Part shown: positions 30,210-55,564 of the stretch, piece after piece | How positions within the stretch are numbered: the stretch's first letter is position 1 | Layout: the number at the start of each line of letters is the position of its first letter | From: Oscillospiraceae bacterium | Lineage (GTDB): Bacteria; Bacillota; Clostridia; Lachnospirales; Lachnospiraceae | Assembly: GCA_963617415.1 (NCBI GenBank) | Contig: CAVEOK010000007.1 | Location: 11,692 to 75,691, forward strand | Reading direction: 5' to 3' | DNA length: 64,000 nucleotides | Translations under genes and position numbers: made by a program | Notes under the pieces: generated by a model | Told to the model about the DNA's origin: nothing | What the model saw: the letters and a program-made list of their open reading frames with translations, nothing else | Database searches by the model: none

Positions 30210-30875
30210 ATGGCATATTTTCCAATGTTTATCAATATAGAGGAAGAAGACTGTCTTTTGATCGGAGGCGGCAGGGTTGCCTTGAGAAAGCTGGAGTATT
30301 TACAGGATTTCGGCGCCAGGGTTACGGTCCTTGCAAAGGAAGTCCTTCCCGAAATCAGGAAAAAACCGAATATTCGTCTTATAGAAAAAAGCTATGAGGA
30401 GGCAGATATTCTTCTGGAGGATTACCTGCTGGTCATTCTGGCGACGGATGACGGTGCTTTTAACCGGCAGATCACAAGGCTTTGCAGGGAAAAAAGAATT
30501 CCGGTCAATGTTGTTGATCAGCCAAAGGAATGCAGCTTTATCCTGCCGGCCTATCTGAAGGAGGAGAATCTTCTGGCTGCCTTTTCTACGGGTGGGGATA
30601 GTCCCGTCGTGGCTCAGTATCTGAAGGAAAAGAACAGGTCTCTTCTTACCCCCTGGCTGGGCAGACTGACAAGCTATCTGGGCAGTCTTCGTCCCAAGGT
30701 GAAGGAAGCTCTTCAGACTATGGAAGAGAGAAAGGCCCTTTATCAAAAGGTGCTTGATACCGGATTAAAGGAAAAAAGGCTTCTTTCTTTGGAGGAGGCT
30801 CTGAAAGCATGTGCGGAAGAGATGCAGACAGGAGAAAGGCAGGAAAAGCATGAAGCTTCTGATGGTGGGAATTGA
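30210..30875 (+). CDS. precorrin-2 dehydrogenase / sirohydrochlorin ferrochelatase (siroheme synthase N-terminal-domain type)
   Basis: MAYFPMFINIEEEDCLLIGGGRVALRK Rossmann start, typical of the SirC / CysG-N / Met8 family. Confidence 0.85.
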   Translation: MAYFPMFINIEEEDCLLIGGGRVALRKLEYLQDFGARVTVLAKEVLPEIRKKPNIRLIEKSYEEADILLEDYLLVILATDDGAFNRQITRLCREKRIPVNVVDQPKECSFILPAYLKEENLLAAFSTGGDSPVVAQYLKEKNRSLLTPWLGRLTSYLGSLRPKVKEALQTMEERKALYQKVLDTGLKEKRLLSLEEALKACAEEMQTGERQEKHEASDGGN

Positions 30876-32076: not shown

Positions 32077-32098
32077 CTCATTTCGGAAGGAAAGACGG

Positions 32099-33028
32099 AT
32101 GAAAAAGAAAATTCGTGTCGGCAGCAGGGAAAGCAGACTTGCAGTTGCCCAAACAGAAGAAATTCTGGAGAAGGTCAGAGCCTTTCATCCGGAGCTGGAA
32201 ATCGAATTGGTTACCATGAAAACGACGGGAGACAGGATTCTGGACCGGAATCTGGATCAGATCGGAGGCAAGGGCCTTTTTGTAAAGGAATTGGATAAGG
32301 CTCTGTTGGAAGGCCGGGTGGATCTGACTATCCACAGTCTGAAGGACCTGCCCATGGAGCAGGCGGAGGAGCTGCCCATTATCGGTTATTCCCAGAGAAG
32401 GGATCCGCGTGATGTCATGATCCTGAGAGAAAAGAGCATGAGGACTGAGGAGATCCGGCTGATCGGAAGCTCCAGCAATAGGAGGAGGCTGCAGCTGCAA
32501 AGACTCTATCCTCAGGCTGAATTTCGGGGAATACGTGGAAATGTGCAGACCAGACTCAAAAAGCTGGCGGAGGAGGGCTATGATGCAACCATCCTGGCCA
32601 TGGCCGGTTTATCCCGTCTGGGAATGGAGCATCTGGCAGACCGGATCTTTTCGGTAGAAGAAGTCATTCCGGCAGCAGGTCAGGGAATCCTTGTTTTTCA
32701 GGGAAGAAGGGGCGAGGATTATTCCTTCCTGCAGGAGGCCTGTGATGAGGCATCAAAATATGCAGCCCTGGCAGAAAGAGCCTTTGTAAGGAAGCTGGAT
32801 GGAGGCTGTTCCTCTCCGGTTGCGGCCTATGCCGAAATCAAAGGAAAGAAAATCCTGCTGAGGGGGCTCTATTACGATGAGGCTGAGGAAGACTATATCA
32901 TCGGGAAAAAGGAAGGCAATGTCGATGAGGCCGGGAAACTTGGCTTAGCTCTTGCAGCAGAATTAAAGGAAAGCTATGCCCGGAAAAAAGGGCGGCAGGG
33001 AAGAAAAGAGGAAAAAGAAGGCAGATGA
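32099..33028 (+). CDS. hemC: hydroxymethylbilane synthase (porphobilinogen deaminase)
   Basis: IRVGSRESRLAVAQT, HSLKDLP, and LDGGCSSPVAAYA (cofactor-binding Cys). Confidence 0.95.
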   Translation: MKKKIRVGSRESRLAVAQTEEILEKVRAFHPELEIELVTMKTTGDRILDRNLDQIGGKGLFVKELDKALLEGRVDLTIHSLKDLPMEQAEELPIIGYSQRRDPRDVMILREKSMRTEEIRLIGSSSNRRRLQLQRLYPQAEFRGIRGNVQTRLKKLAEEGYDATILAMAGLSRLGMEHLADRIFSVEEVIPAAGQGILVFQGRRGEDYSFLQEACDEASKYAALAERAFVRKLDGGCSSPVAAYAEIKGKKILLRGLYYDEAEEDYIIGKKEGNVDEAGKLGLALAAELKESYARKKGRQGRKEEKEGR

Positions 33029-34566
33029 AAGAGGAAAAAAAGGGAAAGGTATGGCTGGTAGGGGCCGGTCCGGGAGACGGTGGACTTCTCACGGAAAAGG
33101 CCCTTGCTCTGATCGGACTTGCAGATACAATCGTATATGATGCCTTGATTTCCTTAGAGATCATTGCCTCTCTTCCCCCGGAGGCTGAGCTGATCGATGT
33201 GGGAAAAAGAGCAGGCCGCCATCCGGTGCCTCAGGAAGAAATTAACCGGATTTTGTGCGAAAAGGCAAAGGAAGGGAAAAAGGTGCTTCGCCTGAAGGGA
33301 GGAGATCCCTTTGTATTCGGCAGAGGCGGAGAGGAGCTTGCTCTTTTGGTAAAGGAGCAGATTCCCTTCGAGATTGTGCCCGGAATCAGCTCGGCAGTTG
33401 CGGTTCCTGCCTATAACGGTATTCCGGTCACCCACCGGGATTACAGTTCTTCCTTTCATGTGATCACCGGACACAAGAAGAAGGACGGCAGCCTGGATAT
33501 TGATTTTGAAGCTCTGGTCAGGCTGAAGGCAAGCCTGGTCTTTCTGATGGGCTTATCCGAGCTGGAAACGATCTGCCGAAAGTTACTGGAAGGCGGGATG
33601 GATCCGGATATGCCATGTGCAATTTTAGAAAAGGGCACGACAGCGGAGCAGAGAAGGGTGCGGGCAAGCCTGTCCGCTTTAAAAGAAGCTGCGGATAAAG
33701 CAGGGCTGCAGGGGCCTGCCATTATCATTGTGGGAAGGGTCTGCCAGCTGGAAGAGAACTTTTCCTGGTATGAAAAAAAGCCCCTTTTTGGCAGACAGAT
33801 CTTAAATACCAGACCAAGACAGGCAAGTGCAGAGCTTAGCAGAAGACTGCGGCATCTTGGAGCTCAGGTGATTGCATATCCGACGATTGAAACAGAGCCC
33901 TTGTCTTCTTTTGAGGAAGACTATCAGGAGATGAGAAGGGAAAAGCGGCCGCTTTGCCTGGCTTTTACCTCCTCCCGGGGTGTAGAATATTTCTTTGCAG
34001 AGCTGAGAAGAAGGGGACATGATCTGAGAGAGCTTCTGGGAAAAAAGAAGCTGTCCTTTGCCGTGATCGGCGAGGCGACAGGCAGAAGTCTGCAGGCCTA
34101 TGGAATCTTTGCGGATTATATGCCAAAAAGCTACTCGGCAGAGGCCCTTGGCAGGCTTTTGGCAGAAAAGATCCCCAAGGACGGGATGGTATATCTTTAC
34201 CGGGCCAGGGAGGGATCGCAGAAGATCATAGAGGTTTTTGAGGAAGCGGGTATAGCATACAGGGATGTTCCGGTTTATCAGACCCTTTACAGAAAAAGAG
34301 ATCAGGTCGGAGAGAAAATTTATCAGGCCCTTGCAGAAGGTAGAATTCATGCAGTGACCTTTACCAGTGCTTCTACGGTAGAGGGCTTTGTAAGATGCTT
34401 TGAGGGACTGGACTTTGGCAGTCTTTTGGCTTTTTGTATCGGAGAGCAGACAGCCGAAAGAGCAAGGCAGTACGGCTTTCAGATCAGGTTTGCAAAAGAG
34501 GCTACGATGGACAGCCTGTCAGACTGCATTTTAGCGCAGTATGAGTCTAAGCTCCAACTAGGTTAA
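33025..34566 (+). CDS. bifunctional uroporphyrinogen-III C-methyltransferase / uroporphyrinogen-III synthase
   Basis: N-terminal SUMT motifs (VWLVGAGPGDGGLLT, LKGGDPFVFGRGGEE). The C-terminal ~250 aa are HemD-like. Confidence 0.9.
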   Translation: MKEEKKGKVWLVGAGPGDGGLLTEKALALIGLADTIVYDALISLEIIASLPPEAELIDVGKRAGRHPVPQEEINRILCEKAKEGKKVLRLKGGDPFVFGRGGEELALLVKEQIPFEIVPGISSAVAVPAYNGIPVTHRDYSSSFHVITGHKKKDGSLDIDFEALVRLKASLVFLMGLSELETICRKLLEGGMDPDMPCAILEKGTTAEQRRVRASLSALKEAADKAGLQGPAIIIVGRVCQLEENFSWYEKKPLFGRQILNTRPRQASAELSRRLRHLGAQVIAYPTIETEPLSSFEEDYQEMRREKRPLCLAFTSSRGVEYFFAELRRRGHDLRELLGKKKLSFAVIGEATGRSLQAYGIFADYMPKSYSAEALGRLLAEKIPKDGMVYLYRAREGSQKIIEVFEEAGIAYRDVPVYQTLYRKRDQVGEKIYQALAEGRIHAVTFTSASTVEGFVRCFEGLDFGSLLAFCIGEQTAERARQYGFQIRFAKEATMDSLSDCILAQYESKLQLG

Positions 34567-34651
34567 ACGCTCCGAGAGAGTCTTGACAGGAGCTGTTTTA
34601 ATATATGCAAAATATATGCAAACCCGGCAAAAAGAAGATGGGAGATAAGAA

Positions 34652-35635
34652 ATGAATTTGATAGAAAGACCCAGAAGACTCAGAACGAGTCCTCTGTTAC
34701 GCCAGATGGTAAGAGAAACAAGGGTATCGGCAGACAGTCTGATCTATCCTATTTTTGCAGAAGAAGGAGAGAACATTAAGGAAGAAATCTCGGCTATGCC
34801 GGGACAGTACCGCTACAGTCCGGACCGGATCAGAGAAGAGCTGGACCGGATCAGTGATGCGGGAGTAAAGAGCATTCTGCTCTTTGGCATTCCTAAGCAG
34901 AAGGATGAGATCGGAAGCTCTGCATGGGATCAGGAAGGCATTGTACAGGAGACCCTTCGTTATATCAAAAAGGAATATCCGCATCTTTTTTGTATTACCG
35001 ATGTCTGTATGTGTGAATATACCTCCCATGGCCACTGCGGCATTCTTTGTGACCATGGAGTTGATAATGACAAGACTTTGGAAGTTCTTAGCAGGACAGC
35101 CCTTTCTCATGTGCAGGCCGGTGCGGATATGGTGGCTCCCTCTGATATGATGGATGGAAGAATTGCCGCCATTAGAGCAGTTTTGGATGAGCATGCCTAT
35201 ACAAATACTCCTATCATGTCCTATGCGGTCAAATATGCATCCTCCTTCTACGGCCCCTTCCGGACAGCGGCGGATTCGGCGCCGGCCTTTGGAGACCGAA
35301 AGGGCTATCAGATGGATTACCATAACCGGAAGGAGGCGCTCAAGGAAGCACTTCTGGATGACCGGGAGGGAGCAGATATTCTGATGGTAAAGCCGGCCCT
35401 TTCCTATCTGGATATTGTAAGGGAGGTTTCAAATCAGACCAATAAGCCCCTTGCAACCTATAGTGTCAGCGGCGAGTATGCTATGATCAAGGCAGCTGCT
35501 ATGGCAGGTTATATTGATGAGAAGGCAATTGTATGTGAATCGGCGATTTCCATGTATCGTGCAGGCGCAGATCTGCTGATCACTTATTACGCAAAGGAGC
35601 TTGCACAGTATATCAAAGAAGGATACATCGGATAA
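34652..35635 (+). CDS. hemB: porphobilinogen synthase (ALA dehydratase)
   Basis: RPRRLR start, cysteine-rich Zn site CMCEYTSHGHCG, and active-site Lys regions. Confidence 0.95.
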   Translation: MNLIERPRRLRTSPLLRQMVRETRVSADSLIYPIFAEEGENIKEEISAMPGQYRYSPDRIREELDRISDAGVKSILLFGIPKQKDEIGSSAWDQEGIVQETLRYIKKEYPHLFCITDVCMCEYTSHGHCGILCDHGVDNDKTLEVLSRTALSHVQAGADMVAPSDMMDGRIAAIRAVLDEHAYTNTPIMSYAVKYASSFYGPFRTAADSAPAFGDRKGYQMDYHNRKEALKEALLDDREGADILMVKPALSYLDIVREVSNQTNKPLATYSVSGEYAMIKAAAMAGYIDEKAIVCESAISMYRAGADLLITYYAKELAQYIKEGYIG

Positions 35636-36921
35636 TGAAAAGAGACAGATCAGAAGAATTATTTAAGAGAGCAGTTCAGGTGATACCGGGCGGTGTCAAC
35701 AGTCCGGTCAGAGCCTTTGGCCCGGTGGGTGGAAAGCCGGTTTTTATTGAGAAAGCCAATGGACAGTATCTTTATGATACGGATGGCAATCAATACACCG
35801 ACTATATCGGTTCCTGGGGACCGATGATACTGGGACATAATGATGAGAGAGTCGTGGAAGCGATCAGAAAGCAGCTAGAACAAGGCGTCAGCTATGGGGC
35901 GACAACGGAGCTGGAAGTCGAAATGGCAGAGCTTATGTGCAGCTTGGTGCCTTCTCTGGAAATGGTCAGAATGGTAAATTCCGGAACAGAAGCGGTTATG
36001 AGTGCGATCAGGACGGCTCGTGGCTTTACCGGTAAAAATAAGGTGATAAAGTTCGAAGGATGTTATCATGGCCATTCAGATGGGCTTTTGGTAAAGGCCG
36101 GAAGCGGCGTCATGACATCCGGCGTGCCCAGCAGTGCCGGCATCAGTCCGAATTGTGTGAAGGATACCTTAAGTGCCGTATATAATGACCTGAAAAGTGT
36201 AAAGAGACTCTTTGAAGAAAATAAGAATGAGATTGCCTGCCTGGTTGTAGAACCGGTTGCAGCCAATATGGGCGTTGTGCTTCCGGAGAAAGGCTTTTTG
36301 CAGGGCTTAAGAGAGCTTTGCGATAAAGAAGGCGCTCTTTTGATCTTTGACGAGGTGATCACAGGTTTTCGCCTTGCCCTGGGAGGCGCTTCCGAATACT
36401 TTAATGTAAGGCCGGATCTTCTTACCTATGGCAAGATCATAGGCGGCGGTCTGCCGGTCGGTGCTTACGGCGGAAGAAAGGATGTTATGCAGGTAGTGGC
36501 TCCTTCGGGACCTGTCTATCAGGCCGGTACCTTAAGCGGTAATCCCCTGGCAATGGCAGCAGGAATCAGCCAGCTGCAGATTCTGGAGAAGAATCCGCAG
36601 ATCTATGATGACTTAGAGAAGCTGGGAGAGCAGTTCAGACAGGGAGCGAAAAAGGCAGCAGCTTCTGCCGGAATTTCCTGTCAGGTTACAGGAATTGCTT
36701 CTTTATCCTGCATCTACTTTGCAGAAGAGCCGGTTCGGGATTATGAAAGCGCAAACCGTTCGGACACGGAAAAATTTGCAGTCTACTATCAGAAAATGCT
36801 GGAAAAGGGCAATTATTTCGGACCAAGTCAGTTTGAATCCGTCTTCCTTTCTGCGGCACATACAGAGGCAGATATTGAGAAGACGCTTGCAGATATGCAG
36901 AAGGTAATGAAAGCGTTCTAA
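35635..36921 (+). CDS. hemL: glutamate-1-semialdehyde 2,1-aminomutase
   Basis: IPGGVNSPVRAF, FDEVITGFR and YGKIIGGGLP (PLP Lys). Confidence 0.95.
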   Translation: MKRDRSEELFKRAVQVIPGGVNSPVRAFGPVGGKPVFIEKANGQYLYDTDGNQYTDYIGSWGPMILGHNDERVVEAIRKQLEQGVSYGATTELEVEMAELMCSLVPSLEMVRMVNSGTEAVMSAIRTARGFTGKNKVIKFEGCYHGHSDGLLVKAGSGVMTSGVPSSAGISPNCVKDTLSAVYNDLKSVKRLFEENKNEIACLVVEPVAANMGVVLPEKGFLQGLRELCDKEGALLIFDEVITGFRLALGGASEYFNVRPDLLTYGKIIGGGLPVGAYGGRKDVMQVVAPSGPVYQAGTLSGNPLAMAAGISQLQILEKNPQIYDDLEKLGEQFRQGAKKAAASAGISCQVTGIASLSCIYFAEEPVRDYESANRSDTEKFAVYYQKMLEKGNYFGPSQFESVFLSAAHTEADIEKTLADMQKVMKAF

Positions 36922-46911: not shown

Positions 46912-48951
46912 ATGAAAGAGAAATTTTTTGAGTGGGTGATCAGACTCCGCTTTCCGATTCTGGCTTTTTTTATTCTTGCTGCAATTTCGGGAGCCTTTGC
47001 AAGAGGAATGGTAGGAGTCAATTATGATATGAATGACTATCTTCCAGAGGATTCCCCTTCCACAGTAGCATTGGATAAGATGGAGGCAGAGTTTGACGGA
47101 GCAATTCCCAATGCAAGAGTGGCAATTAAGGATGTAAGCTATGCACAGGCACTTGCCTGCAAGGAGAAGCTGGAAGCAATCGATGGGGTAGAGTCAGTCA
47201 GCTGGCTGGATGACATCAATTACCTCAACAGTCCCCTTGAGGCTTTAGATGAAGAAGATGTGGAAAGCTATTATAAGGATACTGTAGCTTTATATACCGT
47301 AACCATCGAGGAGGATCATATCAATGACGCCGTGCCGGCAATCAGAGAGCTGATCGGGGATGACAATGCCATGACAGGCAGTGCAGTCAGTACGGCAGTT
47401 GCAACCACTAGTACAGTCAATGAAGTGAAAAAAATCTCTGTCATTGCGGTTCTGCTTGTCTTTCTGATCTTAATCCTGACAACCGGCTCCTGGCTGGAAC
47501 CGGTGATCGTTCTTTTTGGAATCGGTGTTGCAGTGATGATCAATTCCGGCTCCAATCTGATCTTCGGAGAGATTTCCTTCGTTACCAATGCAGCGGGAAA
47601 TATATTGCAGCTGGCGGTTTCCCTGGATTATTCCATCTTCCTGATCCATCGTTTTCAAGAATTGAATGCAGAATATCATGATCCGAAGAAGGCGATGAAG
47701 CTGGCCCTCTGCAGATCAACCGCATCGATTCTGTCCAGCGGACTGACAACGGTAATTGGGTTTTTGGCACTGCTCTTTATGCGCTTTCAGATTGGTCCGG
47801 ATCTGGGAAGGGCTCTTGCAAAGGGAATCAGTATCAGTCTCTTGACGGTATTCCTTTTTATGCCGGGTGTGATCCTGATCAGCTATAAAGGAATTGAAAA
47901 GACGAAGCACAAGCCCTTCCTACCGTCATTTGAAAAATTCGGAAAGTTGGTAAGCAGGATAAGCATCCCTCTGGCCATTGTTTTTTGCATTATTATGATT
48001 CCGGCCTTCTATTTGAGTAATCAGAATAGCTTTTATTACGGATCTTCCCATATTTTTGCTGCCGGAACGCAGTATGGAGATGATACAGCTTTTATCGAGG
48101 ATACCTTTGGAATTAAGGATACCTATGTCCTGATGGTGCCGAAAGGAGATAATAAGTCGGAAAGAGCCCTGTGTGAAGAATTGGATGAGATGGATTCTAT
48201 TATTTCCATTACTTCTCTTACAGAAATACTGGGGCCGGGCATTCCGACAGAGATTCTCCCGGACAGCATTCTGGAAAAGCTACAAAGTGACAATTACGAC
48301 AGGATGGTCATCTCTGTGAGTGAAGCTTACGAAGGAGATGAGACTTTTGCTTTGGTAGAAAAGATCCGTTCTCTTGCAAAGAGTTATTATGGGGAGGAGT
48401 ATTATCTGGCAGGTCAGGGCGTAAGTACCTATGATCTGATGGATACGATCACAGCCGATATGTTCAAGGTCAATCTGGTTGCGATCGGAGCCGTTTTCCT
48501 GGTTTTGATTCTGACCATGCGCAAGCTGATCACACCGGTTGTTCTGGTATTGACGATTGAAACGGCAATCTGGATCAATCTGACCATTCCCTATCTGCAG
48601 CAGAAACCGCTTTTCTATATTGCCTATCTGATCATCAGCTCGGTTCAGCTGGGTGCGACCGTGGATTACGCAATCCTCTTCTCGGAACGTTATAAGGAAA
48701 GCAGGCAAAGTCTGGGCAAGAAGGAGAGCATTGTAGAAAGTATTTCGAAGACGACGATTTCCATGCTGACCTCCGGTCTGACAATGACTATCGTCGGCTT
48801 CTTGCTGGGTGTGATCTCAACGCATGGACTTTTGTCCCAGCTGGGGTATCTTCTGGGAAAGGGAACCATCTGTTCTTTGATCAGTGTTCTGTTTGTTTTG
48901 CCGGGAATGCTTTATTTGACAGATCGGAAAAGAGCAAACAAAAAGAGTTGA
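46912..48951 (+). CDS. MMPL / RND-superfamily membrane transporter
   Basis: Two bundles of about 6 TM segments separated by large extracytoplasmic domains, 679 aa, typical MMPL architecture. Confidence 0.8.
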   Translation: MKEKFFEWVIRLRFPILAFFILAAISGAFARGMVGVNYDMNDYLPEDSPSTVALDKMEAEFDGAIPNARVAIKDVSYAQALACKEKLEAIDGVESVSWLDDINYLNSPLEALDEEDVESYYKDTVALYTVTIEEDHINDAVPAIRELIGDDNAMTGSAVSTAVATTSTVNEVKKISVIAVLLVFLILILTTGSWLEPVIVLFGIGVAVMINSGSNLIFGEISFVTNAAGNILQLAVSLDYSIFLIHRFQELNAEYHDPKKAMKLALCRSTASILSSGLTTVIGFLALLFMRFQIGPDLGRALAKGISISLLTVFLFMPGVILISYKGIEKTKHKPFLPSFEKFGKLVSRISIPLAIVFCIIMIPAFYLSNQNSFYYGSSHIFAAGTQYGDDTAFIEDTFGIKDTYVLMVPKGDNKSERALCEELDEMDSIISITSLTEILGPGIPTEILPDSILEKLQSDNYDRMVISVSEAYEGDETFALVEKIRSLAKSYYGEEYYLAGQGVSTYDLMDTITADMFKVNLVAIGAVFLVLILTMRKLITPVVLVLTIETAIWINLTIPYLQQKPLFYIAYLIISSVQLGATVDYAILFSERYKESRQSLGKKESIVESISKTTISMLTSGLTMTIVGFLLGVISTHGLLSQLGYLLGKGTICSLISVLFVLPGMLYLTDRKRANKKS

Positions 48952-48975
48952 CTTTTATGAGCATGATGGTATAAT
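48948..48975 (+). promoter_or_regulatory. candidate promoter for the sulfur-assimilation cluster
   Basis: TTGACT (48948-48953), 16 nt, then an extended -10 TGgTATAAT (48967-48975). Confidence 0.45.
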
Positions 48976-49049
48976 CAAAAGAAATTCGAGTAAACCTACA
49001 GAAATGGTAGGATAAACAGGAAACAAAGCGAAAGACCAAGGAAGACAGC

Positions 49050-50009
49050 ATGAAGTATGACTTACTGATCGTCGGCAGCGGTCCGGCCGGACTTAGCGCA
49101 GCGGTATACGGAAAAAGAGCAAATCTGAAGCTGGCAGTTGTGGAAAAAGAGTATGAAGGAAGCGGCCAGATTGCAGAAAGCGGAAAAGTGGATAACTATT
49201 TAGGCCTTCAGGGGATAAGCGGCTATGATCTTGGTGAAAAATTCCGGGAGCATGCTATAAGTCTGGGAACAGAATTCCTTGAGAAAGAAGTGAACCGGCT
49301 GGAAGTCCTCTATGAAGAGGATGGTCAGAAGGTGAAGGGCTATCGGCTGACCTTTAGTGATCAGACAAGTGCAGAAAGCAGAGCAGTGATCTATGCGGCG
49401 GGAGCCTACCCCAGACGGTCGCAGATCAAGGGAGAGGAACTTTACAGCGGAAAGGGAGTTTCCTACTGCGCAATCTGTGACGGTGCTTTTTGCAGAGGAA
49501 AAAATGCCGCTGTTCTGGGCGGAGGAGACAGTGCTTTGGATGATGCCCTTTATCTTTCCGAAAATGCCGAAAAGGTTTATCTGATCCATAGGAGAGACAG
49601 CTTCCGCGGAGCCGAGAGCAGCCTGGAACTGGTAAAGAGCAGGGAGAATATCGAGTTGATCCTGAAGGAAAGCGTAGAGGAATTTCTCGGAGAGAAGAAG
49701 CTGTCGGCGATTCGTCTTGGCAGCGGAAGAATTCTGGAGGTCAGCGGAGCCTTTGTTGCCTATGGCTCATTACCCCAGAACGAGCCGGTCAAAGGATTGG
49801 TTCAGCTGGATCCGGCAGGATATATCCTGGCTCCGGAATCCGGAGAAGCGCTAAAAGCTTTATCCGGAGAAATACTTGAAGGATTTTATGCAGCGGGAGA
49901 TATCAGGAGCAAGAAGCTTCGTCAGCTGGTAACGGCTGTTTCAGACGGAGCGAATGCAGCGACAGCCGCTGCTGACTATATCAAGCAAAAAGGAAGCACG
50001 AAAGAATGA
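49050..50009 (+). CDS. thioredoxin-disulfide reductase-like flavoprotein
   Basis: GSGPAGLSAA FAD site, redox-active CAICDG, and a second GGGDSALDDA Rossmann fold. Confidence 0.85.
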   Translation: MKYDLLIVGSGPAGLSAAVYGKRANLKLAVVEKEYEGSGQIAESGKVDNYLGLQGISGYDLGEKFREHAISLGTEFLEKEVNRLEVLYEEDGQKVKGYRLTFSDQTSAESRAVIYAAGAYPRRSQIKGEELYSGKGVSYCAICDGAFCRGKNAAVLGGGDSALDDALYLSENAEKVYLIHRRDSFRGAESSLELVKSRENIELILKESVEEFLGEKKLSAIRLGSGRILEVSGAFVAYGSLPQNEPVKGLVQLDPAGYILAPESGEALKALSGEILEGFYAAGDIRSKKLRQLVTAVSDGANAATAAADYIKQKGSTKE

Positions 50010-51238
50010 GATTCAATACGAGCCTGCTTCATGCGGGATTGGAAAAAGAAAACAGAGGAGCGACCCTTACGCCTATTTATCAGAATTCCGCCTTTGAACA
50101 GGAAAGTGCAGCAGATCTGGAAGGGATTTTTGAAAACAAAAGGCCGGGCTACTGCTACAGCAGGGTTGGCAATCCGACAGTTGCTGCTTTTGAAAATCGG
50201 ATCAGCAGGCTGGAGGGCGGAATTGCTTCCATTGCCTGTGCCTCCGGTATGGCGGCTCTGACCAACGCCTGTCTTGGCATTCTGCAGAGCGGAGATGAGA
50301 TTGTCGCTTCCTCCAGTCTTTACGGAGGCAGCATAGATCTCTTTCATGACATAGAAGCCTTCGGCATTAAAACAAGCTATGTAAAATCCAATGATTTTGA
50401 AGGCTTTGAGAAGGCAATTAATGAGCATACCAGACTGATCTTTGCGGAAACCATCGGAAATCCCTGTCTGGATGTGACAGATATCAAGGCTTTGGCAGAG
50501 CTTGCACATAGACATGGACTGCCATTGATCATCGACAATACAACGGCAACAAATTATCTGATCCGGCCGATTGAGCAGGGAGCGGATATTGTAATTAATT
50601 CCTCTTCCAAATATATCAATGGAAGCAGCAATTCCATCAGCGGCATTCTGACGGACAGCGGCCACTTTAAATGGAACTTTGAACGTTATCCGGGACTGAA
50701 GGATTACAGAAAGTTCGGACCGATGGCTTATATCGCCAAGCTGAGGAACAGTCTTTTTCGAAATATGGGAGCCTGTCTGGCACCCATGAATGCCTATCTG
50801 AATCTGATCGGTCTGGAAACTTTGGGACTTCGTATGGAGAGGCAGTGCCGGAATGCATTGGATCTTGCAGAGTGGCTGGAAAAGAGCTATCCGGAGCTGA
50901 AGGTCAATTATCCGGGGCTGGAAAGCAGTCCCTGGCATGAGATCGCGGAAAAAGAGCTGCAGAATGGATACGGAGCAATCCTTACCATAAGGGCAGGAAG
51001 CAAGGAAAAGGCCTTTGCTCTGATTGACCGCTTGAAGCTTCCTTACACCCTTTCAAATGTAGGGGATACGAAGACTCTGGTCCTTCATCCGGCTTCTACC
51101 ATCAGCCTTCATAGTACAGAGAAGGAAAAGGAGGATGCCGGAGTCTATGGGGATCTGATCCGGGTCAGCGTCGGAATAGAAGATCTGGAGGATTTGAAGG
51201 AAGATTTTGCTCAGGCAATTCAAGGGCTGGATGCTTAA
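50006..51238 (+). CDS. O-acetylhomoserine sulfhydrylase-type PLP enzyme (MetY/Cys-Met metabolism family)
   Basis: YSRVGNPT and SSSKYINGS (PLP Lys). ATGA overlap with the upstream gene. Confidence 0.85.
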   Translation: MRFNTSLLHAGLEKENRGATLTPIYQNSAFEQESAADLEGIFENKRPGYCYSRVGNPTVAAFENRISRLEGGIASIACASGMAALTNACLGILQSGDEIVASSSLYGGSIDLFHDIEAFGIKTSYVKSNDFEGFEKAINEHTRLIFAETIGNPCLDVTDIKALAELAHRHGLPLIIDNTTATNYLIRPIEQGADIVINSSSKYINGSSNSISGILTDSGHFKWNFERYPGLKDYRKFGPMAYIAKLRNSLFRNMGACLAPMNAYLNLIGLETLGLRMERQCRNALDLAEWLEKSYPELKVNYPGLESSPWHEIAEKELQNGYGAILTIRAGSKEKAFALIDRLKLPYTLSNVGDTKTLVLHPASTISLHSTEKEKEDAGVYGDLIRVSVGIEDLEDLKEDFAQAIQGLDA

Positions 51239-51278
51239 GAAAGTAAAGCAATTTAGGTAAAGGTATAAGGTAATAAAG

Positions 51279-52154
51279 ATGGCAGGAAAAATTGATTATT
51301 CGGCATTAAAAAAGGGCGGTTTCATGAGGCAGAAGCAGAAGGGCTGCTTTTCCTTAAGACTGGCTGTAGTCGGAGGCAATCTGACCGCTGAGAATATTAA
51401 GACAGTGGCAGAGGTTGCAGAAAAATACGGAGAGGGCTATGTGCATATGACCTCCCGTCAGGGAATCGAGATTCCCTTCATTCATGTAGAGGATATTGAT
51501 GAGGTGAAGGCGGCGCTGGCTGCGGGAGGCGTCAATACAGGTGTCTGCGGTCCCAGAGTCAGAACCATTACCGCCTGTCAGGGAGCGGAGATCTGCCCCA
51601 GCGGATGTATCGATACCTATACCCTGGCCAAGGAGCTGAATGAGCGTTATTTCGGAAGAGAGCTGCCCCATAAATTTAAATTCGGCGTAACAGGATGCCA
51701 GAATAACTGTCTGAAGGCAGAGGAGAATGACGTCGGCATTAAGGGCGGTATGGCAGTTTCCTGTAAGGAAGAGGACTGCATTTCCTGCGGCGTCTGTATC
51801 AAGGCCTGTCGGGAGGGTGCACTTCGCATGGAGGATGGAAAGGTACTTCTGGATCCGTCCAAATGCAATCATTGTGCCCGCTGTGTAAAGAGCTGTCCGA
51901 CAGATGCCTGGGTTGGAAAACCCGGATACATTGTTTCTTTCGGAGGAACTTTTGGCAACCATATCTACAAGGGCGAGGAAATCGTTCCTTTGATTCCAGA
52001 TAAGGAAACGCTTTTCCGCGTGACGGATGCAGCAATTGAATTTTTTGAAGAAAATGCCAATCCGAGCGAGCGCTTCCGGAAGACCTTAGAGAGGATCGGA
52101 ACGGAAGGCTTAAAAGAAAAAATCTGGAAGGCTTATGAAGGCAAAGAAGAATAG
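51279..52154 (+). CDS. small siroheme-type sulfite/nitrite reductase fused to a 2x[4Fe-4S] ferredoxin domain
   Basis: Siroheme/Fe-S coupling cysteines CQGAEICPSG (C-x5-C) and GCQNNC (C-x3-C). Ferredoxin motifs CISCGVCIKAC and CNHCARCVKSCP. Confidence 0.8.
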   Translation: MAGKIDYSALKKGGFMRQKQKGCFSLRLAVVGGNLTAENIKTVAEVAEKYGEGYVHMTSRQGIEIPFIHVEDIDEVKAALAAGGVNTGVCGPRVRTITACQGAEICPSGCIDTYTLAKELNERYFGRELPHKFKFGVTGCQNNCLKAEENDVGIKGGMAVSCKEEDCISCGVCIKACREGALRMEDGKVLLDPSKCNHCARCVKSCPTDAWVGKPGYIVSFGGTFGNHIYKGEEIVPLIPDKETLFRVTDAAIEFFEENANPSERFRKTLERIGTEGLKEKIWKAYEGKEE

Positions 52155-52195
52155 GAAAGAATAGAAAAGAAAATCGCAGGCAAAGGAGAAGAAAA

Positions 52196-52441
52196 ATGGC
52201 AGAGATTACATTTGATGATCAGGTAGATATTACAGATAAGGTTTGCCCCCTTACCTTTGTAAAGGCAAAGGTAGCAATCGAAGAGCTGGAGGACGGAGAG
52301 GTTCTTGCCATCCGTATGAATGACGGAGAGCCGGTACAGAATGTACCCAGAAGCATGAAGGAGGAAGGACATAAGATCCTGAAGCTGGAAGATAATGAGG
52401 ATGGAACCTACACACTTTATGTAAGAAAGGTGGAAGAATAG
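52196..52441 (+). CDS. TusA-like sulfurtransferase
   Basis: DITDKVCPLTFVKAK conserved Cys-Pro motif, 81 aa. Confidence 0.85.
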   Translation: MAEITFDDQVDITDKVCPLTFVKAKVAIEELEDGEVLAIRMNDGEPVQNVPRSMKEEGHKILKLEDNEDGTYTLYVRKVEE

Positions 52442-52764
52442 TGGCTGCACGTATTTCAAAGAATGATTTTGAGGAAAAGGTACTGAAAAGCCAGCTTCCG
52501 GTCATTGTGGATTTTTATTCGGATTCCTGCGTTGCCTGCAAGAAGCTGGCACCGGTTCTGGGAGATCTGGAGGATAATTATGAGGACAAGCTTCTTGTTT
52601 ATAAGCTGAATACCAATTTTGACGGAGAGCTGGCAGAAGAATATGAGGTAACAGCAAATCCGACCCTGATTCTCTTTCTTGAGGGAGAAGAAAAGGCGAG
52701 AAGAGTAGGCCCGGCAAAGCCGGCAGAGCTTGAAGCCTGGCTTAAGGATGCGATCGGAGAATAA
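52441..52764 (+). CDS. thioredoxin-fold protein with an atypical CVAC active site
   Basis: VIVDFYSDSCVACKKLAP replaces the canonical WCGPC. GTG start sharing one nt with the TusA stop (TAGTG). AAAGGTGGA RBS. Confidence 0.75.
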   Translation: MAARISKNDFEEKVLKSQLPVIVDFYSDSCVACKKLAPVLGDLEDNYEDKLLVYKLNTNFDGELAEEYEVTANPTLILFLEGEEKARRVGPAKPAELEAWLKDAIGE

Positions 52765-52851
52765 GCAGAGAAAAAGTGCCGGATCACCGGCGCAAGGAAT
52801 GACAGAAGAGGCTGCCAAATTCGAAAAAGGCAGAGAAAAGAGGAGAAAAAG

Positions 52852-53058
52852 ATGATCATTACAGTAGCAGGAGAGAAGAAGGAAGTAAAGGAAGGACTGA
52901 GCTTACCGGAGCTGATCGAGCAGGAAAATGTAGAAATGCCGGAGTATGTAACGGTAACGATCAATGATGAATTTGTTCCGACAGAGGAGAAGGCAACAAG
53001 AGTATTAAAGGAAGGCGATACCGTTGAATTCCTTTATTTCATGGGAGGTGGATGCTAA
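52852..53058 (+). CDS. ThiS/MoaD-family sulfur-carrier protein with a capped C-terminus (…GGGC)
   Basis: 68 aa, beta-grasp-like pattern, ending FLYFMGGGC. The di-Gly is followed by one Cys before the stop. Confidence 0.8.
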   Translation: MIITVAGEKKEVKEGLSLPELIEQENVEMPEYVTVTINDEFVPTEEKATRVLKEGDTVEFLYFMGGGC

Positions 53059-53891
53059 TGGCATTGACAGATGAGCAGATTGAACGCTATTCCAGACATA
53101 TTATATTAAAAGAAATCGGTGCGAAGGGCCAGAAAAAGCTCTTAAATGCCAAGGTTTTGATCATTGGAGCCGGCGGATTGGGAGCACCTGCAGCTATGTA
53201 TCTTGCGGCAGCAGGCGTGGGTACCATCGGTATTGTAGATGCAGATGAGGTGGATCTTTCCAATCTGCAGCGTCAGATCATTCATTCGACAGCAGATATC
53301 GGGAAGGCAAAGGTCAAATCAGCCAAGGAAACCATCAATGACATGAATCCGGATGTAGAGGTGAAGACTTATCGTCTTTTTGTGGATTCTACTAATATCC
53401 AGGAGCTGATCCGTGAGTATGACTTTATCATAGACGGAACCGACAACTTCCCGGCAAAATTTCTGATCAATGATGCCTGTGTTATCGAGAAGAAGCCCTT
53501 CTCCCATGCAGGAATTATTCGCTTCAAGGGACAGCTGATGACCTATGTTCCGGGAGAAGGCCCCTGCTACCGCTGTGTATTCAAGAATCCGCCGCCCAAG
53601 GATGCAGTACCTACCTGCAAGCAGGCAGGTGTAATCGGCGCTATGGGAGGTATCATCGGTTCTCTGCAGGCCTTAGAGGCAATTAAGTATATTACGGGTG
53701 TGGGTGATCTTTTGACCGGTAATCTGATGACCTTTGATGCCATTGATATGAATTTCCATAAGATCAAGCTGCCCAAGGCATCCTGCAATTGTCCGGTCTG
53801 CGGTGAGCATCCGACGATTTTGGTCCCCTTTGATTATGAGCAGGAGGTATGCGAAGAAACCGCTTCCCGCTTTGAAGCACCGCGTTCATGA
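53052..53891 (+). CDS. ThiF/MoeB/HesA-family E1-like adenylyltransferase
   Basis: RYSRHIILKEIG, IIGAGGLGAP and DGTDNF motifs. Zn cysteines CYRC and CNCPVC. Overlaps the carrier gene by 7 nt. Confidence 0.9.
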   Translation: MLMALTDEQIERYSRHIILKEIGAKGQKKLLNAKVLIIGAGGLGAPAAMYLAAAGVGTIGIVDADEVDLSNLQRQIIHSTADIGKAKVKSAKETINDMNPDVEVKTYRLFVDSTNIQELIREYDFIIDGTDNFPAKFLINDACVIEKKPFSHAGIIRFKGQLMTYVPGEGPCYRCVFKNPPPKDAVPTCKQAGVIGAMGGIIGSLQALEAIKYITGVGDLLTGNLMTFDAIDMNFHKIKLPKASCNCPVCGEHPTILVPFDYEQEVCEETASRFEAPRS

Positions 53892-54331
53892 GGTTAGCTA
53901 TGGGAATTATCAGAATGGACTATCATCTTTATGATGATGTGGTAAAATATGCAAAAGAACATCTTCCGGAGGAAGCCTGCGGTCTGATCGCAGGCGAGGA
54001 AGGAGAGGAGGGCAGGCTGATCAAAAAGGTCTATTATCTGACCAATACCGATCATGCAGAAGATCATTTCAGCATGGATCCGGCAGAACAGCTTGCGGCA
54101 ATTAAGGATATGAGAGCAAATGGCCTAAAGCCTCTGGGCAACTGGCATTCTCATCCGGAATCCCCTTCCAGACCGTCTGTGGAGGACATTAAGCTTGCCT
54201 ATGATCCCAAAGCCAGCTATATGATTTTATCCCTGATGGCAGACAATCCGGTTTTTCATTCTTTCCATATTGAAAAAGGAGAGGTTACTAAGGAAGATCT
54301 TAGAATCTACTCTGAGGAATATTATTACTAG
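53888..54331 (+). CDS. JAMM/MPN+ (Mov34) metalloprotease
   Basis: EACG Glu and an exact JAMM motif HSHPESPSRPSVED (HxHx7Sx2D). ATGA overlap with the E1 gene. Confidence 0.9.
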   Translation: MRLAMGIIRMDYHLYDDVVKYAKEHLPEEACGLIAGEEGEEGRLIKKVYYLTNTDHAEDHFSMDPAEQLAAIKDMRANGLKPLGNWHSHPESPSRPSVEDIKLAYDPKASYMILSLMADNPVFHSFHIEKGEVTKEDLRIYSEEYYY

Positions 54332-55534: not shown

Positions 55535-55564
55535 AAGAAGACAGACTGTCCTGCAGAGATTCTT

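What the first reader, a model, noticed from the sequence alone, without database searches (positions are those of the whole stretch)
48948..54331. Protein-thiocarboxylate sulfur-assimilation cluster (HcyS/HcyF/HcyD/MetY-like) expanded with TrxR-like, TusA-like and atypical thioredoxin genes
Eight co-directional, tightly packed genes have ATGA or 1-7-nt overlaps at four junctions. They encode a TrxB-like flavoprotein (CAICDG), a MetY-type O-acetylhomoserine sulfhydrylase, a small siroheme sulfite reductase-ferredoxin fusion, a TusA-like protein (Cys-Pro motif), a thioredoxin-fold protein, a ThiS-like carrier, a ThiF-like E1 and a JAMM protease with a perfect HxHx7Sx2D motif. The core set (carrier + E1 + JAMM + MetY + sulfite reductase) matches the protein-thiocarboxylate-dependent homocysteine/methionine route described biochemically for Wolinella succinogenes (HcyS, HcyF, HcyD, MetY). 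In that system the JAMM protease both uncaps the carrier and releases homocysteine. The TusA-like, Trx-like and TrxR-like genes are additions that suggest a persulfide-relay or reductive sulfur input. I am not aware that this has been characterised for that pathway.
Basis: partly seen in the sequence, partly recalled or inferred. Interest (0 to 1): 0.6.

Follow-up and report, generated by a model that had tools for sequence, protein, structure and literature searches.

The report
Carrier-protein homocysteine operon with dedicated thioredoxin
This gut or rumen Lachnospiraceae bacterium has a real eight-gene operon that most likely turns sulfite into the methionine precursor homocysteine on a small ubiquitin-like carrier protein; the pathway is already known, and the new parts are a built-in thioredoxin, often a thioredoxin reductase, and a probable sulfite supply from organosulfonates.

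Summary
Eight co-directional genes at 49050-54331 encode a TrxR-like protein, MetY, a small siroheme sulfite reductase with a ferredoxin insert, TusA, a thioredoxin (CVAC), a ThiS-like carrier ending GGG-C, an E1 without a rhodanese domain, and a JAMM protease. Four junctions overlap, a near-consensus promoter lies at 48948-48975, and no riboswitch was found.

The core reading as a Wolinella-type protein-thiocarboxylate homocysteine route is supported at domain level. TusA is not an addition: Iyer, Burroughs and Aravind (2006) already listed SirA/TusA as a constant member of this neighbourhood type.

The thioredoxin is the lineage-specific part. Its subfamily was confirmed at 326 stretches in species genomes, and in 76 of the 80 loci inspected it has TusA or SiR on one side and the carrier gene on the other. 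The other four are cut by contig ends. TrxR is adjacent in 39 of 80 and belongs to a clade that is enriched for the cluster but not exclusive to it.

This genome shows no APS or PAPS reductase. It does carry an HpsG/IslA-type sulfonate sulfite-lyase with an SsuABC importer. In a 201-genome sample, all four genomes with such a lyase also carry the cluster, and in some relatives the two are contiguous.

Verdict: a new variant of a known kind, of moderate interest.

The parts
48948..48975 (+). Sigma-70-type promoter, TTGACT-16 nt-TG-TATAAT, overlapping the stop of the upstream MMPL gene
   Evidence: 11 of 12 matches with an extended -10, the best site in 46000-56800. The sequence is conserved in same-genus loci L049 and L050.
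48995..49011 (+). Conserved 5'-UTR inverted repeat CCTAC-N7-GTAGG; a candidate operator or small hairpin, function unknown
   Evidence: identical arms in the window, L049 and L050. No Rfam match.
49050..50009 (+). TrxB-like NADPH thioredoxin-disulfide reductase (CAIC redox pair, HRRDSFRG NADPH motif)
   Evidence: TIGR01292 scores 282 bits against a cut-off of 343. It is a second TrxB in this genome; the other sits next to a canonical Trx on C42. In the tree it falls in a clade of 39 sequences, 37 of them cluster-linked.
50006..51238 (+). MetY-type PLP enzyme (O-acetylhomoserine sulfhydrylase family), a diverged third paralogue
   Evidence: Cys_Met_Meta_PP 379 bits; TIGR01326 450 bits against a cut-off of 495. 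The two other paralogues (C8, C5) score 624 and 580 bits. Against solved structures: 8sf5 375 bits, T. maritima MetY 7kb0 362 bits, Wolinella MetY 3ri6 313 bits.
51279..52154 (+). Small single-chain siroheme sulfite reductase with an inserted 2x[4Fe-4S] ferredoxin domain (Dsr-LP / Fsr-C / AsrC-like)
   Evidence: NIR_SIR_ferr + NIR_SIR + Fer4; the best solved relative is the C-terminal half of F420-dependent sulfite reductase (7np8, residues 342-609, E 1e-36). It is the only copy in the genome.
52196..52441 (+). TusA/SirA sulfur-relay protein with the conserved DITDxVCP Cys
   Evidence: TusA 75 bits. The motif is conserved in 19 orthologues. It lies directly downstream of SiR in both gene-order types, with overlap in some relatives.
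52441..52764 (+). Dedicated thioredoxin, active site S-C-V-A-C-K in place of W-C-G-P-C; its GTG start shares one base with the TusA stop
   Evidence: Thioredoxin 79 bits; TIGR01068 87 bits against a cut-off of 96.8. The subfamily motif V[DE]FYSDSC was confirmed at 326 stretches in species genomes. Neighbours in 80 loci: TusA-Trx-ThiS in 73, SiR-Trx-ThiS in 3, and one side cut off by a contig end in 4. The motif is C[VI][APTS]C, and CVAC is the commonest form (33 of 79).
52852..53058 (+). ThiS/MoaD-fold sulfur-carrier protein ending ...FLYFMGGG-C, i.e. capped
   Evidence: TIGR01683 61 bits (cut-off 37). All 76 orthologues end in an invariant GGG followed by 1-6 variable residues (C 34, SF 16, Q 7 and others). 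It is the only ThiS-like gene in the genome, and there is no true ThiG.
53052..53891 (+). ThiF/MoeB-type E1 adenylyltransferase without a rhodanese domain; two CxxC zinc motifs and the conserved loop Cys (PTCKQAGV)
   Evidence: ThiF 302 bits over residues 13-249 of 279. Best NCBIfam hits are MoeB and the SAMP-activating E1 UbaA. The 7-nt overlap with the carrier gene matches the median overlap seen in relatives.
53888..54331 (+). JAMM/JAB (M67) metalloprotease with an intact E...HxHx7Sx2D motif; the start is possibly at 53900
   Evidence: Prok-JAB 83 bits; desampylase model 71 bits. There are 5856 database homologues, mostly from Lachnospiraceae, one of which is named '[CysO sulfur-carrier protein]-S-L-cysteine hydrolase' by a source.
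30210..36921 (+). Siroheme and tetrapyrrole supply operon: sirC (cysG N-terminal domain), hemA, hemC, cobA-hemD, hemB, hemL. It provides the cofactor for the sulfite reductase and lies 12 kb upstream
   Evidence: In 37 of 80 relatives these genes sit directly next to the cluster.

Best explanation
The operon converts sulfite into homocysteine through a protein thiocarboxylate. It is a Lachnospiraceae version of the Wolinella HcyS/HcyF/HcyD/MetY/Sir route.

Shown by sequence and comparison:
- All parts are present and carry intact catalytic motifs.
- The carrier is always made with a 1-6 residue cap after GGG.
- TusA always accompanies the rhodanese-less E1.
- A dedicated thioredoxin is wedged between TusA and the carrier gene.
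- The cluster's MetY is a diverged third paralogue.
- The genome has MetA (O-acylhomoserine supply), CysK and a siroheme operon, but no ThiG.

Inferred mechanism:
1. The JAMM protease removes the C-terminal Cys to expose Gly-Gly.
2. The E1 adenylates the carrier.
3. The small siroheme reductase reduces sulfite, and the sulfur is handed to TusA Cys17 as a persulfide, or released as sulfide.
4. The sulfur attacks the acyl-adenylate. If TusA persulfide is the donor, an acyl-disulfide forms, and the C-V-A-C thioredoxin resolves it reductively to carrier-COSH. The adjacent NADPH-dependent TrxR recycles the thioredoxin.
5. MetY joins carrier-COSH to O-acetylhomoserine. After an S-to-N shift, the JAMM protease releases homocysteine.

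Sulfite source in this genome (inferred): cleavage of a C2 or C3 sulfonate (DHPS or isethionate) by the HpsG/IslA-type glycyl-radical lyase and SsuABC importer on contig C43. No APS or PAPS reductase was found. In many relatives the same module is fed by an adjacent CysTWA-AprAB-CysDN sulfate block instead.
For: Domains and motifs.

Published precedent for the neighbourhood, including SirA as a stand-in for rhodanese: PMC1779556. A thiocarboxylate carrier as the sulfur donor of Wolinella MetY: PMC8191291.

Synteny:
- 22 of 201 genomes in the family sample carry the JAMM gene.
- The order MetY-SiR-TusA-(Trx)-ThiS-E1-JAMM, or MetY-ThiS-E1-JAMM-SiR-TusA, holds in 20 family loci and 80 species loci.
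- All 76 carriers are capped.
- Of 80 thioredoxins, 76 sit beside the carrier gene with TusA or SiR on the other side. The other four are cut by contig ends.
- The TusA-Trx gap has a median of about 2 nt, and ThiS-E1 overlaps.

The cluster MetY scores below the TIGR01326 cut-off, whereas the two other paralogues are above it.

No true ThiG (27-bit partial hit). CysK and MetA are present. The siroheme operon is in the window.

Sulfite source:
- The GRE on C43 scores 1377 bits against the HpsG model (cut-off 1000). Its best solved relatives are IseG, HpsG and IslA, and it has an SsuA-family ABC system beside it.
- Only 4 of 201 family genomes have such a GRE, and all 4 carry the cluster. My own hypergeometric calculation gives P about 1.1e-4.
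- In G103 the order GRE-activase-SsuCAB-MetY...JAMM is contiguous. In a bioreactor contig GRE and activase follow JAMM directly, with sulfoquinovose genes just upstream of MetY. In Pseudobutyrivibrio ruminis DSM 9787 the order is GRE-activase-ABC importer-MetY...JAMM.
- No AprA, AprB, CysH or CysTW was found in this genome by tblastn, and the single PAPS_reduct hit is CysD.
Against: - Nothing biochemical was tested: not thiocarboxylate formation, not MetY's use of it, not the JAMM substrates.
- The window's MetY is more similar to sulfide-using MetYs (8sf5 and 7kb0, 375 and 362 bits) than to the Wolinella enzyme (3ri6, 313 bits). Sequence therefore gives no specific support for orthology with the thiocarboxylate-dependent enzyme.
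- 7 of the 20 family loci lack the thioredoxin, and half of the Trx-bearing loci lack an adjacent TrxR. These two parts cannot be essential to the chemistry.
- The TrxR clade also occurs in two genomes without the cluster, G117 and G161.
- The sulfonate lyase is on another contig here, and 18 of 22 cluster-bearing genomes have no such lyase. The sulfonate link is therefore facultative.
- Absence of an APS reductase rests on a 103-contig draft that is 98.75% complete.
- CysK is present, so free sulfide is presumably also used in this cell.
Confidence: 0.7

Rival explanations
1. The product is cysteine, or cysteine as well as homocysteine. On this view the MetY-type enzyme acts as an O-acetylserine/O-acetylhomoserine sulfhydrylase on the carrier thiocarboxylate, as in the CysO route of Mycobacterium.
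For: The best NCBIfam model is the bifunctional OAH/OAS subfamily TIGR01326, and several top models are bifunctional enzymes. One database source names a JAMM homologue '[CysO sulfur-carrier protein]-S-L-cysteine hydrolase'.
Against: The PLP enzyme belongs to the gamma-family (Cys_Met_Meta_PP), not the CysM/CysK fold used by the CysO route. The genome has a canonical CysK scoring above its cut-off and MetA to supply O-acylhomoserine. The E1 lacks the rhodanese domain of MoeZ.
Confidence: 0.1
2. Thioredoxin and TrxR are not part of sulfur transfer to the carrier. They serve general thiol maintenance or another reductive step. Candidates are keeping TusA, the E1 cysteines and the carrier's terminal Cys reduced, feeding electrons to sulfite or APS reduction, or reducing TusA persulfide to free sulfide.
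For: The thioredoxin is absent from 7 of 20 family loci. TrxR is absent from 41 of 80 loci and sits at variable positions. The TrxR clade includes members from genomes without the cluster. Some genomes have only one TrxB, and it lies next to or near the cluster (G009 and G155), which looks like a housekeeping enzyme.
Against: In 76 of 80 loci the thioredoxin sits directly upstream of the carrier gene with TusA or SiR before it. This holds whether the sulfate block, the sulfonate block or neither is adjacent, and it is often translationally coupled to TusA. A role specific to APS reductase is excluded here because this genome has no AprAB or CysH. TrxR keeps its CxxC pair, so it is not a TrxR-like ferredoxin-NADP reductase.
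Confidence: 0.25
3. The small sulfite reductase acts mainly to detoxify sulfite, like Fsr in methanogens. The carrier, E1 and JAMM genes would then serve another thiolation or protein-conjugation function (SAMP-like), with MetY using free sulfide.
For: The closest solved relative of the reductase is the sulfite-detoxifying Fsr. The E1 and JAMM genes score well against the archaeal SAMP-activating E1 and desampylase models. Two canonical MetY paralogues exist.
Against: MetY, SiR, TusA, carrier, E1 and JAMM stay together through two different gene orders and across many species loci. They are repeatedly fused to sulfate-assimilation, sulfonate-cleavage or siroheme genes. No E2- or E3-like genes or conjugation targets are linked. 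The cluster MetY is a distinct, diverged paralogue kept next to the carrier.
Confidence: 0.07

Closest known systems
Wolinella succinogenes HcyS/HcyF/HcyD/MetY/Sir protein-thiocarboxylate methionine pathway (Krishnamoorthy and Begley 2011, cited in PMC5764234; MetY structure 3ri6, Tran et al. 2011, cited in PMC8191291)
   Same: Both have a ThiS-fold carrier made with a C-terminal cap, a rhodanese-less ThiF-type E1, a JAMM protease, a MetY-family PLP enzyme and a siroheme sulfite reductase. SirA/TusA is present in the neighbourhood according to Iyer et al. 2006.
   Different: This cluster has a dedicated C-[VI]-x-C thioredoxin between TusA and the carrier gene, and a TrxB paralogue at the head of the operon. 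Its sulfite reductase is a 291-aa Dsr-LP/Fsr-C type with a ferredoxin insert. Its MetY is no closer to the Wolinella enzyme than to ordinary MetYs. There are no sulfate-activation genes in this operon. The Wolinella locus itself could not be fetched, so no gene-by-gene comparison was made.
[quoted passage not shown]
   Same: The component list is the same and includes low-GC Gram-positive bacteria. The prediction that SirA replaces the rhodanese domain is also the same. Relatives of this window carry the full sulfate block CysTWA-AprAB-CysDN directly upstream.
   Different: The paper's text does not mention thioredoxin (0 occurrences). It lists a 'pyridine disulfide oxidoreductase' only as a node in a context network. 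It does not describe a link to sulfonate lyases or sulfoquinovose genes.
Mycobacterium tuberculosis CysO / MoeZ / Mec+ / CysM cysteine pathway
   Same: Both use a carrier thiocarboxylate as the sulfide donor to a PLP enzyme, and a JAMM protease (Mec+) releases the amino acid.
   Different: That pathway uses CysM (tryptophan-synthase-beta fold) and an E1 with a fused rhodanese domain. This cluster uses a gamma-family MetY, a rhodanese-less E1 and TusA.
E. coli ThiS-ThiF-ThiI/IscS and eukaryotic Urm1-Uba4 sulfur transfer (acyl-disulfide intermediates resolved reductively)
   Same: These are the chemical precedent for the step proposed for the thioredoxin. A persulfide attacks the carrier acyl-adenylate, and the resulting acyl-disulfide must be reduced to give the thiocarboxylate. 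This comparison rests on my own knowledge of those systems.
   Different: In those systems the resolving thiol belongs to the E1 or to a rhodanese domain. Here a separate thioredoxin with its own reductase is proposed. That proposal is untested.

Membership tests
Protein-thiocarboxylate homocysteine pathway (HcyS/HcyF/HcyD/MetY/Sir; Iyer class 4e) | Small ThiS/MoaD-fold carrier with a C-terminal Gly-Gly, made with extra residues that need removal | tested here: met
   TIGR01683 scores 61 bits, above its cut-off of 37. The protein ends FMGGG-C. All 76 orthologues end GGG plus 1-6 variable residues.
Protein-thiocarboxylate homocysteine pathway (HcyS/HcyF/HcyD/MetY/Sir; Iyer class 4e) | ThiF/MoeB-type E1 adjacent to the carrier gene and lacking a rhodanese domain | tested here: met
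   The protein is 279 aa with only a ThiF domain, at residues 13-249. Its gene overlaps the carrier gene by 7 nt.
Protein-thiocarboxylate homocysteine pathway (HcyS/HcyF/HcyD/MetY/Sir; Iyer class 4e) | JAMM/JAB metalloprotease with an intact metal-binding motif | tested here: met
   Prok-JAB scores 83 bits. HSHPESPSRPSVED and the upstream Glu are visible in the translation.
Protein-thiocarboxylate homocysteine pathway (HcyS/HcyF/HcyD/MetY/Sir; Iyer class 4e) | MetY-type (gamma-family PLP) enzyme in the cluster, specifically related to the thiocarboxylate-using Wolinella MetY | tested here: inconclusive
   Family membership is clear (Cys_Met_Meta_PP, 379 bits). However, 3ri6 ranks seventh at 313 bits, behind 8sf5 and 7kb0. 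The protein is a diverged third paralogue.
Protein-thiocarboxylate homocysteine pathway (HcyS/HcyF/HcyD/MetY/Sir; Iyer class 4e) | Siroheme sulfite reductase and SirA/TusA in the same neighbourhood | tested here: met
   SiR immediately precedes TusA in both gene orders. Iyer et al. say SirA is always present.
Protein-thiocarboxylate homocysteine pathway (HcyS/HcyF/HcyD/MetY/Sir; Iyer class 4e) | Carrier-COSH is formed, MetY uses it, and the JAMM protease releases homocysteine | not testable with these tools
   This needs biochemistry only.
CysO/MoeZ/Mec+/CysM cysteine pathway | CysM/CysK-fold PLP enzyme in the cluster and an E1 with a fused rhodanese domain | tested here: not met
   The PLP enzyme is Cys_Met_Meta_PP and the E1 has no rhodanese domain. 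CysK is encoded elsewhere, at C4:4335-5234.
Thiamine thiazole ThiS/ThiF/ThiG system | ThiG (and ThiH or ThiO) present to use ThiS-COSH | tested here: not met
   The only ThiG hit in the genome is a 27-bit partial match to model positions 120-212. No thiamine genes lie in the cluster.
Canonical thioredoxin system (TrxA/TrxB) | WCGPC thioredoxin and a TrxB scoring above the equivalog cut-offs | tested here: not met
   The thioredoxin has SCVAC and scores 87 bits on TIGR01068 (cut-off 96.8). TrxR scores 282 bits on TIGR01292 (cut-off 343). TrxR does keep its CxxC pair and HRRxxFRG motif, so the proteins probably work like a Trx/TrxR pair. A canonical pair lies on C42.
HpsG/IslA-type glycyl-radical sulfonate sulfite-lyase (proposed sulfite source, contig C43, outside the window) | Score above the curated HpsG equivalog cut-off, a cognate activase and a sulfonate importer | tested here: met
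   NF048011 scores 1377 bits (cut-off 1000). The activase model NF048010 scores 384 bits (cut-off 430, so below it). SsuA_fam scores 193 bits (cut-off 163.5). The best solved relatives are 5ymr, 6lon and 7kq3. The substrate (DHPS or isethionate) was not resolved.

The most novel reading that the evidence does not exclude
In gut and rumen Lachnospiraceae (Agathobacter, Lachnospira, Pseudobutyrivibrio, Blautia and relatives), this operon is the assimilatory end of anaerobic organosulfonate use. On this reading, sulfite freed from DHPS or isethionate (and ultimately from dietary sulfoquinovose) by an HpsG/IslA-type glycyl-radical lyase is reduced on the small siroheme enzyme. The sulfur then passes as protein-bound sulfane sulfur through TusA and a dedicated thioredoxin/TrxR couple onto the carrier, so that methionine sulfur is made without releasing free sulfide. 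That would give primary fermenters a private use for sulfonate sulfur. These organisms are so far seen only as excreters of DHPS for Bilophila. It would also define a new thioredoxin-dependent step in thiocarboxylate formation.
Probability: 0.2. Interest if true: 0.65.

Novelty: new variant of a known kind. Interest (0 to 1): 0.4.

Why it matters
Price et al. (2018) noted that the thiocarboxylate route to methionine was missing from KEGG and MetaCyc in 2017 and that its proteins were mis-annotated in UniProt (PMC5764234). The sources behind name the protease only as 'M67 family metallopeptidase', 'proteasome lid subunit RPN8/RPN11' or a CysO hydrolase.

This survey shows that the thioredoxin-bearing form of the cluster was confirmed at 326 stretches in species genomes. 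Most are Lachnospiraceae, including abundant human-gut and rumen genera and several cultured strains. Metabolic reconstructions of these organisms should therefore include the route.

The dedicated thioredoxin, with an optional TrxR, gives a concrete and testable hypothesis for a point that is still unsettled: how sulfur reaches a rhodanese-less E1.

The strict co-occurrence with HpsG/IslA-type lyases, and in some genomes physical fusion with them and with sulfoquinovose genes, suggests that some primary fermenters assimilate sulfonate sulfur themselves. This bears on models of sulfoquinovose, DHPS and hydrogen sulfide cross-feeding in the gut.

Tried and rejected
- **Riboswitch or leader control.** Rfam at gathering thresholds over the window found only a T-box at 10196 and a tRNA. 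Rfam at E<=1 over 48700-49200 found nothing. Seven related loci gave only an unrelated T-box downstream of JAMM in L047. S-box control is rejected.
- **Thiamine role for the ThiS-like gene.** Rejected because the genome has no real ThiG.
- **TrxR as an exclusive, dedicated paralogue.** A first tree gave a clean clade of 37 cluster-linked sequences. Adding TrxBs from cluster-negative genomes placed two of them (G117, G161) inside the clade. The claim was weakened to 'enriched, not exclusive'.
- **Sulfate as the sulfite source in this genome.** CysD and CysN-CysC exist on C3, but they are followed by a CHR-type permease, a sulfotransferase-like gene and a TauE-like gene. Those three gene names are my own reading of the translations, not database hits. 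No AprA, AprB, CysH or CysTW was found. Sulfate therefore seems to go to PAPS rather than to sulfite here.
- **M20 peptidase downstream (54401-55534) as a ninth member.** It is conserved only in the two same-genus loci L049 and L050 and is not counted.
- **Direct comparison with the Wolinella locus.** Not possible. The papers PMC3089676 and PMC3176619 are not held.
- **Literature.** Searches combining TusA, thioredoxin, JAMM, sulfite reductase and thiocarboxylate returned nothing relevant.

Full report
**1. Observation**

The eight ORFs are present exactly as described, all on the + strand:
- TrxR-like, 49050-50009
- MetY, 50006-51238
- small sulfite reductase, 51279-52154
- TusA, 52196-52441
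- thioredoxin, 52441-52764 (GTG start)
- ThiS-like carrier, 52852-53058
- E1, 53052-53891
- JAMM protease, 53888-54331

Four junctions overlap, by 4, 1, 7 and 4 nt. Most JAMM homologues begin four residues later, so the last overlap is uncertain. Pfam and NCBIfam confirm every assignment.

A near-perfect extended -10 promoter (TTGACT-16-TG-TATAAT) sits at 48948-48975. No Rfam family matches the short leader.

**2. What the parts are**

- **TrxR-like protein.** It keeps the redox CxxC pair and the HRRxxFRG NADPH motif. It scores below the TrxB equivalog cut-off, 282 against 343 bits.
- **Thioredoxin.** It has S-C-V-A-C-K instead of W-C-G-P-C and is also below its cut-off, 87 against 96.8 bits.
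- **Second thioredoxin system.** The genome has a separate canonical Trx-TrxB pair on contig C42.
- **MetY.** The cluster copy is a third, diverged paralogue. It scores 450 bits on TIGR01326 (cut-off 495), while the copies on C8 and C5 score 624 and 580 bits.
- **Sulfite reductase.** It is a 291-aa single-chain enzyme. Its best solved relative is the C-terminal half of the methanogen F420-dependent sulfite reductase (7np8). That places it among the Dsr-LP/AsrC-like small sulfite reductases discussed in PMC3448663.
- **E1.** It has only a ThiF domain and no rhodanese domain.
- **Unique genes.** ThiS, JAMM, SiR and TusA are each the only copy in the 2.38-Mb genome.
- **Other pathway genes.** There is no true ThiG, so a thiamine role is excluded. 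CysK and MetA are present. A complete siroheme supply operon (sirC-hemA-hemC-cobA/hemD-hemB-hemL) lies at 30210-36921 in the same window.

**3. Conservation**

In a sample of 201 genomes (200 genera) from the same family, 22 carry the JAMM gene. I fetched 20 of these loci.
- 18 hold recognisable parts of the cluster. The other two hold only the JAMM hit.
- Two gene orders occur: MetY-SiR-TusA-(Trx)-ThiS-E1-JAMM and MetY-ThiS-E1-JAMM-SiR-TusA.
- SiR-TusA and ThiS-E1-JAMM therefore behave as two sub-modules.
- TusA is present in all 18 loci that hold cluster parts. The thioredoxin is missing from 7 of the 20.

A pattern search with an alignment of 12 cluster thioredoxins (V[DE]FYSDSC) confirmed 326 stretches in species-representative genomes. 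By record title they are almost all Lachnospiraceae: Agathobacter, Lachnospira, Lachnobacterium, Pseudobutyrivibrio, Blautia, Butyribacter, Roseburia and Coprococcus. Several are cultured strains.

In the 80 loci returned:
- The thioredoxin lies TusA-Trx-ThiS in 73 and SiR-Trx-ThiS in 3. In the other 4 a contig end removes one neighbour.
- Its motif is C-[VI]-[APTS]-C, and the window's CVAC is the commonest form (33 of 79).
- All 76 carriers end in an invariant GGG followed by 1-6 variable residues. A proteolytic uncapping step is therefore a fixed feature.
- The TusA-Trx and ThiS-E1 junctions are the tightest.

**4. TrxR**

TrxR is adjacent in 39 of 80 loci: 23 upstream of MetY as in this window, 11 directly after JAMM, and 5 elsewhere in the locus.

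A first tree gave a 100/100-supported clade of 37 cluster-linked sequences, separate from the C42-type TrxB. The family-wide search then showed many unlinked TrxBs of similar score. When ten of them were added, two from cluster-negative genomes (G117 and G161) fell inside the clade.

TrxR is therefore a recurrent, enriched partner, not an exclusive one.

**5. Where the sulfite comes from**

Many relatives have CysT-CysW-CysA-AprA-AprB-CysD-CysN directly upstream of MetY. CysD-type genes occur in 18 of 22 cluster-bearing genomes against 23 of 179 others. That count is my own.

This genome is different.
- It has CysD and CysN-CysC on C3, but followed by what I read from the translations as a CHR-type permease, a sulfotransferase-like gene and a TauE-like gene.
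- No AprA, AprB, CysH or CysTW was found.
- Contig C43 carries an SsuA-family ABC importer next to a glycyl-radical enzyme. That enzyme scores 1377 bits on the HpsG equivalog (cut-off 1000). Its best solved relatives are the isethionate and DHPS sulfite-lyases 5ymr, 6lon and 7kq3. An activase is adjacent.

Only 4 of the 201 family genomes have a GRE above that cut-off, and all four carry the cluster. The hypergeometric P is about 1.1e-4.

The two systems are physically linked in four settings:
- G103: GRE-activase-SsuCAB-MetY...JAMM.
- Pseudobutyrivibrio ruminis, including DSM 9787: GRE (1419 bits), activase, a sugar-type ABC importer, then MetY...JAMM-hemC-cobA.
- A bioreactor contig (L003/L004): sulfoquinovose transaldolase-pathway genes directly upstream of MetY, and GRE plus activase directly after JAMM.
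- L078 and L083: sulfoquinovose genes follow the cluster and the siroheme genes.

The sulfoquinovose papers I read mention neither ThiS, TusA nor homocysteine. Assimilatory use of isethionate-derived sulfite is an accepted idea in other bacteria (PMC11423573).

**6. Mechanism**

The best-supported model is the known thiocarboxylate route.
1. JAMM uncaps the carrier.
2. The E1 adenylates it.
3. Reduced sulfur from the siroheme enzyme is loaded to give carrier-COSH.
4. MetY joins carrier-COSH to O-acetylhomoserine.
5. JAMM releases homocysteine.

These steps are inferred from homology and synteny, not shown.

For the accessory genes, I favour TusA as the persulfide donor to the rhodanese-less E1. 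This prediction was already made in 2006. The thioredoxin would be the reductant that resolves the carrier-CO-S-S-TusA acyl-disulfide, or reduces TusA persulfide, and TrxR with NADPH would recycle it.

The fixed position of the thioredoxin gene between TusA and the carrier gene, whatever the sulfite source, argues for a role in this step. Its absence from several related clusters shows that it can be replaced, presumably by housekeeping thioredoxin.

**7. Comparison and novelty**

The pathway kind is known, from the Wolinella biochemistry and from Iyer class 4e. TusA is part of the archetype, not an addition.

Three things differ here:
- a dedicated non-canonical thioredoxin subfamily
- a frequently linked TrxB
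- the small Fsr-C-like reductase, together with the association with organosulfonate cleavage

The cluster MetY is not specifically closer to the Wolinella enzyme than to ordinary MetYs. Orthology at that level is therefore unproven.

Earlier notes of this scan describe very similar operons in other genomes and reached the same class. I treated them as leads only.

I file this as a new variant of a known kind, with moderate interest.

**8. Limits**

- No biochemistry and no transcript data were available.
- Gene absences rest on a 103-contig draft genome.
- The 80 loci were selected through the thioredoxin itself. They measure where that thioredoxin sits, not how often clusters contain it. The unbiased estimate comes from the family sample, where 11 of the 18 cluster-bearing loci fetched have a thioredoxin and 7 lack it; two further loci held only the JAMM gene.

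Noticed in passing
window 48995-49011: An inverted repeat, CCTAC-N7-GTAGG, lies in the 5' UTR between the promoter and the first gene. It is conserved in the two same-genus loci L049 and L050. More distant TrxR-first loci (L069, L083) show a TAGTAGGAAxACTAT-like element at the same place. This may be an operator for a protein regulator.
   Followed up: partly
G000 contig C43:8899-15105 (outside the window): An SsuA/SsuC/SsuB-type ABC importer, an HpsG/IslA-type glycyl-radical sulfonate sulfite-lyase and its activase lie together, preceded by an AraC-like response regulator. This fermenter carries no Dsr-type respiratory genes in the regions I examined.
   Followed up: yes
G000 contig C3:56697-62637 (outside the window): CysD and a CysN-CysC fusion are followed by a CHR-family permease, a sulfotransferase-like protein and a TauE/SafE-like permease. 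These last three names are my reading of the translations and were not searched. This looks like a module that makes and consumes PAPS for sulfation, not for sulfate assimilation.
   Followed up: partly
L001 9001-9432 and L002 6015-6446 (Pseudobutyrivibrio-like contigs): A JAMM gene 76% identical to the window's stands alone. It sits between sulfoquinovose-pathway genes (GH31 sulfoquinovosidase, transaldolase, reductase, isomerase, ROK) and siroheme genes, with no carrier, E1, SiR or TusA within the 8-9 kb of flank fetched.
   Followed up: no
L037 539-3343 (G173:C40): A second, divergent MetY / JAMM-like / E1-like trio (50%, 31% and 48% identity) lies 4 kb upstream of the main ThiS-E1-JAMM-TusA-SiR set on the same contig. 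Some genomes may therefore run two carrier systems.
   Followed up: no
L032 12827-13297; L064 and L067 after JAMM: A second, distant SiR-like gene (about 28% identity in L032) follows the JAMM gene in some relatives.
   Followed up: no
window 54401-55534: A PepT-like M20 peptidase lies directly downstream of JAMM, after a 69-nt gap. It is conserved only in the two closest relatives (L049, L050), so it is probably not part of the system.
   Followed up: partly
The genome search family sample: The only other genome of the same genus in the sample (G125) lacks the JAMM cluster but has CysD. The operon is therefore variable even within the genus.
   Followed up: no
L049, L050, L053, L057, L083 record titles: Several loci with a cluster that is Lachnospiraceae-like in gene order (thioredoxin 71-88% identical) come from bins labelled Bacteroidaceae, Prevotella or Parabacteroides. 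These are probably mis-binned or mislabelled MAGs.
   Followed up: no
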